Below are positions 14,620 to 15,670 of a DNA stretch of 64,000 bases, piece after piece. This DNA is from the human T2T-CHM13v2.0 reference genome, Homo sapiens. A program made the position numbers and the translations under genes. The stretch lies in assembly GCF_009914755.1 (NCBI RefSeq), contig NC_060936.1; one strand, 5' to 3'. The notes beneath the pieces are model-generated. The model had not been told where the DNA came from. It saw only the letters and a list, made by a program, of their open reading frames with translations, and ran no database searches. Every line of letters starts with the position of its first letter. Positions within the stretch are counted from its first letter, which is position 1.

Positions 14620-15670
14620 CAGCTCCGCGTTAAAGGGGTTTGCCGCCCGCAGGGGGCGCTGCGGTGCAGAGGCGACGTTGCCCTTTCCTCTCCAGGGCCG
14701 AGCGGGGGGTTTGCCGCCCGCAGGGGGCGCTGCGGTGCAGAGGCGACGTTGCCCTTTCCTCTCCGGGGCCGAGCGGGGGGTTTGCCGCCCGCAGGGGGCG
14801 CTGCGGTGCAGAGGCGACGTTGCCCTTTCCTCTCCGGGGCCGAGCGGGGGGTTTGCCGCCCGCAGGGGGCGCTGCGGTGCAGAGGCGACGTTGCCCTTTC
14901 CTCTCCGGGGCCGAGCGGGGGGTTTGCCGCCCGCAGGGGGCGCTGCGGTGCAGAGGCGACGTTGCCCTTTCCTCTCCGGGGCCGAGCGGGGGGTTTGCCG
15001 CCCGCAGGGGGCGCTGCGGTGCAGAGGCGACGTTGCTCTTTCCTCTCCGGGGCCAAGCGGGGGGCTTGCCGCCCGCAGGGGGCGCTGCGGTGCAGAGGCG
15101 ACGCTGCTCTTTCCTCTCCAGGGCCGAGTTAAATTCCAGAGAACCACATACAGTGGGGATTTTTGTTTTCTCTCTTCCATCCCCAGTCCGGGTGGCGGCA
15201 GAGCTCAAAGAGGAGTCTGTTCTGGGGAAAAGACGGCGTCTGCCTCTCTCTCGAACCAGCCCTGATCAACTCCCAAGCAGCCGGTCCTTAGATAACACGG
15301 CTGAGAAACCTGAAACCAGCGGCTCTGCCCGTCATCAGCGCCAGCATCCCCGTCTGGAAACCGAGGCGCTCTGCGGAGACGCCACAGTGACTGAGTGTTA
15401 AGTGGAAGGGCTGGCGTTCTCGCGGCAGAGTTCACAGGCCTGGACCTAGGAACTGAGACAGAAGTTTTTCAGGGAGTCTGTCTGGGGCTTGAGCACTTGC
15501 GCTGTTCTGGGGCACTCTGCGCACGTACCGGCTTTGGGACCATTGTTCTTCCCAAGCCAAGCCGTGAGCTAGGTTAATACGGCCGTGCGCTCCACTCGGC
15601 CGGGCTGCCTGCAGCGCTCCCCGCTGTGGATTCAACCGTGTTCAAGGCAAGGGAAGAACATCCACGCCCC
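14620..15670. promoter_or_regulatory. Orphan CpG island (VNTR plus unique CpG-rich flank)
   Basis: High GC and dense CpG in non-Alu sequence extending ~500 bp right of the VNTR. Confidence 0.7.
14635..15128. repeat. GC/CpG-rich minisatellite, 7 x 71 bp, one CTCF motif per unit
   Basis: tgccgcccgcagggggcgctgcggtgcagaggcgacgttgccctttcctctccggggccgagcggggggtt recurs at 14641, 14712, 14783, 14854, 14925, 14996 and 15067. Confidence 0.97.

What the first reader, a model, noticed from the sequence alone, without database searches (positions are those of the whole stretch)
14635..15128. Copy-number-variable array of seven co-oriented CTCF sites in a CpG-rich VNTR between CCDC77 and B4GALNT3 (candidate tunable, methylation-switchable insulator)
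Seen: seven near-identical 71-bp units, each containing CCCGCAGGGGGCGCTG, all in the same orientation. The few unit variants lie outside this motif. The array sits in an orphan CpG island ~10 kb past the CCDC77 poly(A) site and ~6.5 kb upstream of the B4GALNT3 promoter. Known: the motif fits the CTCF core CCASYAGRKGGCRS at 13/14 positions and contains two CpGs; CTCF binding is methylation-sensitive; repeated CTCF arrays act as epigenetic switches (H19/IGF2 ICR, DXZ4). Inference: allele length and methylation could set boundary or loop-anchor strength. The forward motifs point into B4GALNT3, so the array could tune its expression. From recall (unverified), this gene's region has been linked by GWAS to circulating sclerostin and bone/height traits.
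Basis: partly seen in the sequence, partly recalled or inferred. Interest (0 to 1): 0.85.

Follow-up and report, generated by a model that had tools for sequence, protein, structure and literature searches.

The report
CTCF-motif minisatellite upstream of B4GALNT3
A 494-base stretch made of seven nearly identical 71-base copies, each carrying a strong binding motif for the genome-folding protein CTCF, lies 6.3 kb in front of the bone-related gene B4GALNT3; it is a good but untested candidate for a domain border, and such repeat arrays are already known.

Summary
Window 14635-15128 is a 71-bp x 7.0 tandem array (98% match). One identical CCCGCAGGGGGCGCTG sits in every unit, all on the + strand. 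The array is CpG-rich, unique in the genome and lies 10.4 kb past CCDC77 and 6.3 kb before the B4GALNT3 start.

The CTCF reading is plausible. The motif matches the core consensus at 13 of 14 places. It is the best hit in 136 kb apart from one reverse site, under a matrix typed from recall. Only 1 of 17 local minisatellites carries such a motif. At 12 bits or more, forward hits lie left and reverse hits right of B4GALNT3.

Nothing shows occupancy, copy-number variation or a methylation switch:
- The one mismatch is the rarest of four variants genome-wide.
- The cytosine whose methylation blocks CTCF in vitro is not in a CpG here.
- "Variants avoid the motif" is not significant (P = 0.17).

CTCF-bound tandem repeats, and the idea that repeat length sets the number of CTCF sites, are in print.

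Verdict: a new, untested member of a known kind; moderate interest.

The parts
14635..15128 (+). 71-bp x 7.0 GC-rich minisatellite (GC 0.75, 59 CpG, observed/expected 0.86). Units 2-5 are identical and the edge units carry the few transitions.
   Evidence: unique in the genome by BLAST-type search
14643..14661 (+). CTCF-like site 1 (19-mer CCGCCCGCAGGGGGCGCTG; core 14646-14659)
   Evidence: 16.9 bits with the recalled matrix
14714..14732 (+). CTCF-like site 2
14785..14803 (+). CTCF-like site 3
14856..14874 (+). CTCF-like site 4
14927..14945 (+). CTCF-like site 5
14998..15016 (+). CTCF-like site 6
15069..15087 (+). CTCF-like site 7
14619..14634 (+). Left junction 16-mer CCAGCTCCGCGTTAAA, a direct repeat of the right junction (13 of 16). 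It marks the likely site of the first duplication.
   Evidence: random 16-mer pairs reach 13 of 16 at a rate of 6e-5
15118..15133 (+). Right junction 16-mer CCAGGGCCGAGTTAAA
15129..15665 (.). Unique CpG-rich flank (15129-15628: GC 0.58, observed/expected CpG 0.70). This is the only part whose CpG retention says anything about long-term low methylation. It is single-copy in the genome.
15666..15984 (-). Antisense Alu that makes up the right end of the CpG-rich zone. It is not part of a true CpG island.
   Evidence: masked repeat; sequence read (the Alu identification is my reading)
21476..22082 (+). B4GALNT3 first exon inside its own promoter CpG island (21000-22800: GC 0.71, observed/expected 0.85). 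This is the promoter the forward motifs face.
   Evidence: annotation given with the finding; hESC enhancer element 20644-21627

Best explanation
This is a young, locally born GC-rich minisatellite of the kind that abounds near chromosome ends.

**Origin (partly shown, partly inferred).** It most likely began as a duplication between two short direct repeats that still bracket it. Unequal exchange then kept its inner units identical. The amplified 71-bp unit happens to hold one strong CTCF core motif, so the array now offers seven co-oriented sites 71 bp apart.

**Proposed function (inferred, not shown).**
- When the array is unmethylated, CTCF occupies several of the sites.
- The cluster then stalls cohesin that extrudes from the B4GALNT3 side.
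- That forms the upstream edge of a loop domain holding the B4GALNT3 promoter and its intragenic enhancers. The downstream edge would be the reverse-facing motifs that start about 541 kb, chiefly chr12:543,076.
- More units would give a less leaky barrier.

**What is shown:** the array, the motif quality, the orientation and the geometry. **What is inferred:** occupancy, looping, dose dependence and any effect on expression.
For: - **Array and motifs:**
- **Motif strength:** 13 of 14 to the consensus. There are 9 hits at one mismatch or fewer in the window against a shuffle mean of 1.26, and 0 of 100 shuffles reach 9. Each site scores 16.9 bits, p about 1e-6, with the recalled matrix.
- **Chance per unit:** 0.5% of 20,000 shuffles.
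- **Local base rate:** 1 of 17 minisatellites (period 15-200, 3 or more copies) in 336 kb. The next best unit scores 4.7 bits.
- **Geometry:** in contiguous chr12:434,001-570,000, all hits of 12 bits or more on the + strand lie at 438,021-530,770. All on the - strand lie at 541,401-566,628. The strongest is 543,076 at 22.4 bits.
- **Enhancers:** the nine RefSeq hESC enhancer elements at 497,145-542,783 lie between the array and that site.
- **Flank:** the unique flank keeps CpG at observed/expected 0.70, as expected of DNA that stays unmethylated in the germ line.
- **Precedents:** CTCF/cohesin peaks span 61-mer arrays (PMC4032850). 171 tandem repeats are bound by CTCF and BORIS in K562 (PMC5007689). 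Tandem CTCF sites act as leaky insulators (PMC7087399).
- **Origin:** the junction 16-mers match at 13 of 16.
Against: - No occupancy, methylation, contact or population data could be reached.
- RefSeq lists no functional element on the array. That set is sparse, with only 15 protein-binding sites on all of chr12.
- The mismatch puts C where A is expected. It costs 4.1 bits in the recalled matrix.
- The exact 14-mer is the rarest of the four variants at that place: 38 copies, 31 outside this array, against 193 for A, 72 for G and 69 for T.
- The clean +/- split holds only at 12 bits or more. At 9-12 bits the window has four minus-strand hits: three inside the bracket at window 19731, 27806 and 48178, and one upstream of the array at 9693. 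The split was also seen post hoc.
- Identical inner units mean the seven-site state is recent, so it cannot be an old conserved border.
- The variants give no sign of constraint.
- GC-rich, long-unit VNTRs are 21-fold enriched within 5 Mb of chromosome ends (PMC7608644, abstract). Some will therefore carry such a motif by chance.
Confidence: 0.42

Rival explanations
1. Neutral minisatellite. It is a by-product of the high turnover of GC-rich tandem repeats near chromosome ends. The CTCF-like motif is incidental, the array is methylated or simply unoccupied in most tissues, and its length has no regulatory effect.
For: - The locus is 0.45 Mb from the 12p end, in a class (GC above 60%, unit above 15 bp) that is 21-fold enriched there (PMC7608644, abstract).
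- Sampling found 17 minisatellites in 336 kb, ten of them in the 136 kb around B4GALNT3.
- The motif carries the rarest base at core place 3.
- The variants show no constraint (P = 0.17).
- Three of 7 variant events are CpG-type transitions, as methylated DNA would give, though this is not significant (P = 0.25).
- Nothing is annotated on the array.
- A 0.5% chance per unit, taken over the many GC-rich VNTRs of a genome, yields tens of such arrays.
Against: - It is the only 1 of 17 local arrays with the motif.
- All other places of the 19-mer are at or near the best base.
- The geometry is convergent with a 22.4-bit reverse site.
- The unique flank is CpG-retaining.
- Arrays with CTCF cores that have been tested were bound.
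Confidence: 0.38
2. Clustered-site regulatory element rather than a border. The array plus its CpG-rich flank would be an orphan CpG-island promoter or enhancer. CTCF would bind it together with its germ-line paralogue CTCFL/BORIS, or other GC-box factors would. It would act on transcription locally (an unannotated start site, or repression as for BORIS-MS2), not through insulation.
For: [quoted passage not shown]
- A 56-bp minisatellite upstream of CTCFL represses a reporter (PMC4973313, passages). Its units hold a CTCF-like core.
- The unique flank meets CpG-island criteria.
- There is one GGGCGG per unit on the - strand.
Against: - There is no RefSeq transcript, CAGE cluster or promoter element here.
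- No RNA family matches.
- There is no evidence of BORIS binding at this locus.
Confidence: 0.13
3. Something else: a coding repeat, a structured RNA or DNA element, or a recombination-hotspot or quadruplex minisatellite.
For: All six frames are open across the array. The + strand is G-rich, with GC skew of +0.08 to +0.11.
Against: - 71 is not a multiple of 3.
- 0 Pfam families for the two longest frames, and no annotation.
- 0 Rfam matches.
- The single-strand DNA fold is no better than shuffles (z = +1.21; 178 of 200 shuffles fold at least as well).
- No match to the recalled PRDM9 13-mer even with one mismatch, and no quadruplex pattern with loops up to 15.
Confidence: 0.04

Closest known systems
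Subtelomeric 61-mer repeat arrays bound by CTCF and cohesin (next to terminal and internal telomere-like tracts)
   Same: - CpG-rich tandem units of about 60-70 bp, each with one CTCF core, all co-oriented.
- ChIP peaks for CTCF and cohesin span arrays of 2-7.3 copies (PMC4032850, passages).
- I saw such arrays in this genome at chr12:4.3-4.6 kb.
- A 14.6-copy array lies at chr9:150,391,547-150,392,436.
   Different: - There is no homology beyond the core. The alignment shares only the motif columns, and the 213-bp query finds no other place in the genome.
- Our array is not next to telomere-like repeats or a 29-mer array.
- Our core has C rather than A at place 3.
Tandem repeats co-bound by CTCF and BORIS in K562 (171 repeats, mostly uncharacterised VNTR-like repeats plus TAR1)
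   Same: These are GC-rich tandem repeats whose head-to-tail layout creates clustered CTCF sites. They are proposed to have a regulatory function (PMC5007689, abstract and section 6).
   Different: Many of those repeats have short units with partial motifs, whereas ours has one full core per 71-bp unit.
HRNR coding VNTR with length-dependent CTCF site number
   Same: More repeat units give more predicted CTCF sites, a predicted change in folding and altered expression of neighbouring genes (PMC10234305, passages).
   Different: - That repeat is an exon with much longer units.
- It has expression-QTL support and one annotated CTCF element.
- It too is put forward as a conjecture. Ours has no population or expression data.
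H19/IGF2 imprinting control region and the DXZ4 macrosatellite
   Same: Both are repeated CTCF sites in CpG-rich repeats whose occupancy follows methylation. For DXZ4 I saw abstracts in the listing. For H19 I rely on recall plus a title in the reference list seen.
   Different: - Their units are about 0.4 kb (H19, recalled) and 3 kb (DXZ4), not 71 bp.
- Their switch is parent-of-origin or X-inactivation specific.
- Nothing suggests allele-specific methylation here, and the core place-2 CpG is absent.
BORIS-MS2 minisatellite upstream of CTCFL
   Same: - It is a polymorphic (10-18 copies) 56-bp minisatellite just upstream of a promoter.
- It changes reporter output (PMC4973313, passages).
- In this genome its 57-bp units carry a CTCF-like core.
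   Different: It lies within about 1-3 kb of the promoter and acts as a repressor in plasmid assays. That paper does not speak of CTCF binding to it (0 occurrences of 'CTCF bind'). It shares no homology with our unit outside the core.
Tandem CTCF site arrays at protocadherin, immunoglobulin heavy chain and beta-globin loci
   Same: Several co-oriented sites act as leaky cohesin barriers. Together they insulate and set loop choice (PMC7087399, abstract and passages).
   Different: Those sites are kilobases apart, are separately evolved and conserved, and have been shown to work. Ours are 71 bp apart and were made by recent duplication.

Membership tests
CTCF binding site | Match to the core recognition motif | tested here: met
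   13 of 14 to CCASYAGRKGGCRS in all 7 units. Each scores 16.9 bits, p about 1e-6, with a count matrix typed from recall and unverified. The mismatch (C for A at place 3) is the rarest variant in the genome.
CTCF binding site | Occupancy by CTCF (and cohesin) in cells | not testable with these tools
   No ChIP or CUT&RUN data can be reached. RefSeq functional elements list nothing here. A possible listing in the supplement of PMC5007689, or in the subtelomere browser of PMC4032850, could not be seen.
CTCF binding site | Upstream accessory motif for zinc fingers 9-11 | not tested
   I hold no verified matrix for it and did not want to type one from memory.
VNTR (variable number tandem repeat) | Head-to-tail repeat of a 7-100 bp unit | tested here: met
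   Period 71, 7.0 copies, 98% match.
VNTR (variable number tandem repeat) | Copy number differs between haplotypes | not testable with these tools
   Only one haplotype is available. Four identical inner units suggest recent turnover, but that is inference.
CpG island | Length of 200 bp or more, GC of 0.5 or more, observed/expected CpG of 0.6 or more | tested here: met
   Array: 494 bp, GC 0.75, ratio 0.86. Unique flank 15129-15628: GC 0.58, ratio 0.70. The rest of the CpG-rich zone is an Alu.
CpG island | Unmethylated state | not testable with these tools
   No methylation data. The array's own CpG ratio is uninformative because its units are too young to have decayed.
Methylation-sensitive CTCF site (H19-type switch) | CpG at core position 2, the cytosine whose methylation impairs binding in vitro | tested here: not met
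   Core places 2-3 read CC, not CG. The rule comes from PMC6222495, passages.
Methylation-sensitive CTCF site (H19-type switch) | CpG at core position 12 (position 11 in the numbering of PMC3431485), where methylation tracks occupancy in cells | tested here: met
   GGCGC is present in every unit. PMC3431485, passages. In vitro the effect at this place is only marginal.
Methylation-sensitive CTCF site (H19-type switch) | Allele-specific or tissue-specific methylation with reciprocal occupancy | not testable with these tools
   No data.
Subtelomeric 61-mer CTCF repeat family | Sequence homology of the unit to the 61-mer | tested here: not met
   The alignment of our unit with the chr9 and 12p 61/62-mers shares only the core columns. 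There is no second genomic match to our units.
Macrosatellite CTCF arrays (DXZ4 type) | Kilobase-scale unit in tens of copies | tested here: not met
   The unit is 71 bp and there are 7 copies. DXZ4 has 3-kb units in 12-100 copies (abstracts in the listing).
Loop anchor or insulator | Convergent partner motif on the side the motif faces | tested here: met
   A reverse 14-of-14 motif at chr12:543,076 scores 22.4 bits, 94 kb downstream. There are no other minus-strand hits of 12 bits or more in between. This is at motif level only and uses the recalled matrix.
Loop anchor or insulator | Contact stripe or loop, and enhancer-blocking activity | not testable with these tools
   No Hi-C or Micro-C data and no assays.

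The most novel reading that the evidence does not exclude
Length alleles of this array could set the number of occupied CTCF sites and so the leakiness of the upstream border of the B4GALNT3 domain. If so, the array would be a causal, SNP-tagged regulatory variant behind part of the B4GALNT3 expression-QTL signal, and thus behind the sclerostin, bone-density and height signal. It would be a natural dose series (1 to n sites at fixed 71-bp spacing) for measuring how the number of CTCF sites translates into insulation in humans.
Probability: 0.06. Interest if true: 0.75.

Novelty: new member of a known kind. Interest (0 to 1): 0.38.

Why it matters
B4GALNT3 is a well-supported effector gene for circulating sclerostin, bone density and height. 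The signal acts through its expression (PMC6899787).

A repeat that carries seven CTCF motifs just upstream is invisible to SNP arrays and is poorly mapped by short reads. It is therefore a reasonable hidden-variant candidate. It would also be a tidy natural system for asking how many adjacent CTCF sites make a border.

The kind of element and the idea are already published for other loci, and nothing yet shows that this one is bound, variable or active. The value of the finding is as a specific, cheap-to-test candidate, not as a new principle.

Tried and rejected
**Sequence checks that led nowhere**
- Dispersed repeat or segmental duplication: rejected. Three units as a query find only this locus, and the unique flank is single-copy.
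- Common origin with other CTCF-core minisatellites (chr9 61-mer, 12p subterminal 62-mer, CTCFL 57-mer): rejected. Only the core columns are shared.
- Coding repeat: all six frames are open, but 71 is not divisible by 3 and Pfam gives 0 families for the two longest frames. I ran no further search on it.
- RNA family: 0 matches at gathering score in 13500-16500.
- Hairpin-prone DNA: z = +1.21, no better than shuffles.
- PRDM9 13-mer, quadruplex pattern and several other factor consensuses typed from recall: no hits, except one GGGCGG per unit and a one-mismatch E2F-like word. I draw nothing from these.

**Controls that proved unsound or inconclusive**
- Word-count control. The tool's reversed-pattern control (8 against 38 for our 14-mer) looks like enrichment. 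The reversed word has three CpGs against two, so I reject it as a fair control. I use only the comparison among the four place-3 variants, noting that A and T variants have one CpG and C and G variants two.
- Constraint on the motif, judged from the placement of variants: not significant.
- CpG-decay signal among variants: 3 of 7, P = 0.25.

**Literature for this locus**
- B4GALNT3 + VNTR: 4 papers.
- B4GALNT3 + tandem repeat: 16 papers.
- B4GALNT3 + CTCF: 7 papers.
- None describes this array.
- PMC8096271 names B4GALNT3 among its top ten VNTR-expression genes in lymphoblastoid cells. The repeat's identity is in a closed supplement.
- My recollection, not checked in the text, is that its method needs the array to fit inside a read. 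If so, the 494-bp array is unlikely to be the one. The window holds other candidates.
- The CCDC77 search was badly designed: it required any 2 of 5 terms and gave 9,426 papers. None of the 12 listed mentions CCDC77, so it shows nothing either way.
- I opened no supplements, because the brief says they are closed. They may bear on three points: the VNTR id (PMC8096271), the list of 171 bound repeats (PMC5007689) and the fine-mapping tables (PMC6899787).
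Full report
**What is there.** Window 14635-15128 (chr12:448,635-449,128 of T2T-CHM13, 0.45 Mb from the 12p end) is a head-to-tail array of a 71-bp unit. It has 7.0 copies, 98% matches, no indels and a TRF score of 939.

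Units 2-5 are identical. Unit 1 differs at 1 place, unit 6 at 2, and unit 7 at 4 before the array ends. All differences are transitions. Every unit holds CCCGCAGGGGGCGCTG on the + strand, which gives 7 exact copies spaced 71 bp apart. Shuffles give a mean of 0.02, and 0 of 100 reach 7.

**Setting.**
- The array starts 10,424 bp after the end of CCDC77 and ends 6,348 bp before the B4GALNT3 start site.
- No RefSeq transcript or functional element overlaps it. The nearest is an hESC enhancer element at the B4GALNT3 promoter.
- The array has GC 0.75 and a CpG observed/expected ratio of 0.86.
- The CpG-rich zone runs to about 16000, but its last 320 bp are an antisense Alu.
- The array's own CpG content says little about methylation, because its units are too alike to have had time to decay.
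- The informative part is the single-copy flank 15129-15628 (GC 0.58, ratio 0.70). That fits DNA that stays largely unmethylated in the germ line. The 500 bp upstream have a ratio of 0.40.
- So 'orphan CpG island' is fair, with the caveat that repeat and Alu make up most of it.

**Origin.** Three units used as a query find only this locus in the whole genome, so the array is not a copy of a dispersed family. The 16 bases before the array and the 16 bases across its end match at 13 of 16 (CCAGCTCCGCGTTAAA and CCAGGGCCGAGTTAAA). Random 16-mer pairs from the neighbourhood do so at a rate of 6e-5.

I read this as the trace of a first duplication between short direct repeats, followed by unequal exchange. 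The older variants sit in the edge units and the inner ones are identical. This step is inference.

The region is rich in such repeats. I found 17 minisatellites (period 15-200, 3 or more copies) in the 336 kb of 12p that I could sample, ten of them in chr12:434,001-570,000. A long-read study reports that VNTRs with GC above 60% and units above 15 bp are 21-fold enriched within 5 Mb of chromosome ends (PMC7608644, abstract).

**Is the motif a CTCF site?**
In the window there are 9 hits at one mismatch or fewer, 7 of them the array. The shuffle mean is 1.26, and 0 of 100 shuffles reach 9.
It is unverified, although its column sums are self-consistent. With it, each site scores 16.9 bits (p about 1e-6), the best in the window.
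- In the 136 kb from CCDC77 to NINJ2, only one site scores higher.
- A match of 13 of 14 arises in 0.5% of 20,000 dinucleotide-preserving shuffles of the unit.
- None of the other 16 local minisatellites comes close. The next best unit scores 4.7 bits.

Against this, the single mismatch puts C where A is expected. That costs 4.1 bits in the recalled matrix. Independent of my recall, the exact 14-mer with C is the rarest of the four variants in this genome:

| Base at core place 3 | Copies in genome |
|---|---|
| A | 193 |
| G | 72 |
| T | 69 |
| C | 38 (31 outside the array) |

The motif is therefore strong but not canonical.

**Geometry.** The motifs are in the forward sense and so face B4GALNT3. 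In contiguous chr12:434,001-570,000, every hit of 12 bits or more on the + strand lies at 438,021-530,770. These are the array, one site in the CCDC77 3' UTR and two intronic sites.

Every such hit on the - strand lies at 541,401-566,628. The strongest is GGGCCACCAGGGGGCGCTC at 543,076, which scores 22.4 bits and matches the consensus at 14 of 14. It lies 94 kb from the array, in the 3' part of the gene. The nine RefSeq hESC enhancer elements at 497,145-542,783 lie between the two.

Counting the array as one locus, there are four + loci and five - hits. A perfect split is then 1 of 126 orderings (my arithmetic). The pattern was noticed after the fact. It also vanishes below 12 bits: at 9-12 bits the window has four minus-strand hits, three inside the bracket at 19731, 27806 and 48178 and one upstream of the array at 9693. 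The pattern fits a convergent loop domain around B4GALNT3 with the array as its left anchor, but it is evidence at motif level only.

**Methylation switch.**
- A review reports that methylation of the cytosine at core position 2 impairs CTCF binding, while position 12 has only a marginal effect (PMC6222495, passages).
[quoted passage not shown] This is concentrated at those two places, which that paper numbers 1 and 11, the second being the predominant CpG of the motif (PMC3431485, abstract and passages).
- In this unit the core CpGs sit at places 3-4 and 12-13. The place-2 cytosine is followed by C.
- The array therefore lacks the CpG with the clearest direct effect and has the one with correlative support.
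- With 9 CpGs per unit, indirect exclusion by dense methylation remains possible.

**Claims I could not test.** These are copy-number variation (only one haplotype is available), occupancy by CTCF or cohesin, methylation, contacts and expression effects. The remark that variants avoid the motif is true but expected by chance (P = 0.17 for 7 events). Three of 7 variant events are CpG-type transitions (P = 0.25). Neither points either way.

**What is known.** The kind is established.
- CTCF and cohesin ChIP peaks span subtelomeric 61-mer arrays of 2-7.3 copies (PMC4032850, passages).
- I found such arrays in this genome at the 12p tip. There is also a 14.6-copy array with a perfect core between CACNA1B and IL9RP1 on chr9.
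- 171 tandem repeats, mostly uncharacterised VNTR-like repeats, are strongly bound by CTCF and BORIS in K562. Their tandem layout creates clustered sites (PMC5007689, abstract and section 6).
- The specific idea that repeat length sets the number of CTCF sites, and thereby folding and neighbour-gene expression, has been put forward for the HRNR repeat (PMC10234305, passages).
- Tandem CTCF sites act as leaky insulators at protocadherin, Igh and globin loci (PMC7087399).
- Our unit shares only the core with the other arrays. It is an independent instance, not a family member by descent.

**The locus in the literature.**
A B4GALNT3 SNP associates with sclerostin, heel bone density and height, and colocalises with B4GALNT3 expression in artery.
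- The authors favour a linked SNP in open chromatin within the gene (PMC6899787, passages).
- A short-read VNTR survey lists B4GALNT3 among its ten strongest VNTR-expression genes in lymphoblastoid cells (PMC8096271, passage). Which repeat it means is in a closed supplement.
- My recollection, not checked in the text, is that its method needs the array to fit inside a read. If so, a 494-bp array is an unlikely candidate. The window holds three other minisatellites.
- Three searches pairing B4GALNT3 with VNTR, tandem repeat or CTCF found nothing on this array.

**Rivals.**
- A neutral minisatellite with an incidental motif remains nearly as likely as a working CTCF cluster.
- A promoter-like or BORIS-type clustered site is a third option.
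- Coding, RNA, hairpin, hotspot and quadruplex readings found no support.

**Verdict.** The best reading is a young local minisatellite that multiplied a strong, slightly off-consensus CTCF core sevenfold. It probably serves, when unmethylated, as the forward-facing upstream barrier of the B4GALNT3 loop domain (confidence about 0.4). It is a new, untested member of a known kind. Interest is moderate and rests on the medical relevance of B4GALNT3 and on how cheaply public ChIP, long-read and expression data could settle the question.

Noticed in passing
L007:1034-1900 (chr20:59,303,833-59,304,699), just upstream of the CTCFL start at 59,303,467: The 57-bp x 15.4 minisatellite in front of CTCFL/BORIS, published as BORIS-MS2, carries a CTCF-like core (CCTGCAGGGGGCGC) in its units. 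The gene for the CTCF paralogue thus sits behind an array of CTCF-type motifs. The paper on BORIS-MS2 shows reporter repression and 10-18 copy alleles but does not speak of CTCF binding to it.
   Followed up: partly
L005:748-1637 (chr9:150,391,547-150,392,436), between CACNA1B and IL9RP1: A 61-bp x 14.6 array (97% match) has a perfect CTCF core in each unit: 13 exact co-oriented 14-mers at 60-61 bp spacing. It looks like an internal, expanded copy of the subtelomeric 61-mer repeat.
   Followed up: partly
window 27250-27683, 41949-42088 and 60907-61291; outside the window chr12:503,357-503,576, 525,358-526,078, 539,211-540,266 and 541,596-542,279: B4GALNT3 introns are packed with minisatellites: 61 bp x 7.1, 49 bp x 3.0, 40 bp x 10.0, 36 bp x 6.1, 80 bp x 9.0 at 100% identity, 42 bp x 25.1 and 17 bp x 40.4. 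None has a CTCF-like unit. One of the short ones may be the published VNTR expression QTL for this gene.
   Followed up: partly
chr12:434,001-570,000 (window plus L028-L035): At 12 bits or more, all CTCF-like hits left of 530,771 are on the + strand and all right of 541,400 are on the - strand. They bracket B4GALNT3 and its annotated hESC enhancers. The split disappears at lower thresholds.
   Followed up: partly
L008:3607-4059 and chr12:4,339 and 4,397: The 12p tip shows the published subterminal layout. There is a 29-bp x 15.6 CpG-rich array at 100% identity, next to two very strong reverse CTCF motifs (22.5 and 20.1 bits) inside 62-bp repeats.
   Followed up: no
window 4021-4039 (+): A 15.4-bit forward CTCF-like site lies in the last exon (3' UTR) of CCDC77, 10.6 kb upstream of the array and in the same orientation.
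   Followed up: no
window about 14360-14500: A short antisense Alu fragment sits just upstream of the array. It appears to be flanked by a direct repeat of about 12 bases (read by eye). It is not in the list of masked repeats of 100 bases or more.
   Followed up: no
genome-wide: The tool's reversed-word control is not CpG-matched for these GC-rich 14-mers. The reversed word has three CpGs against two, so it overstates enrichment.
   Followed up: yes
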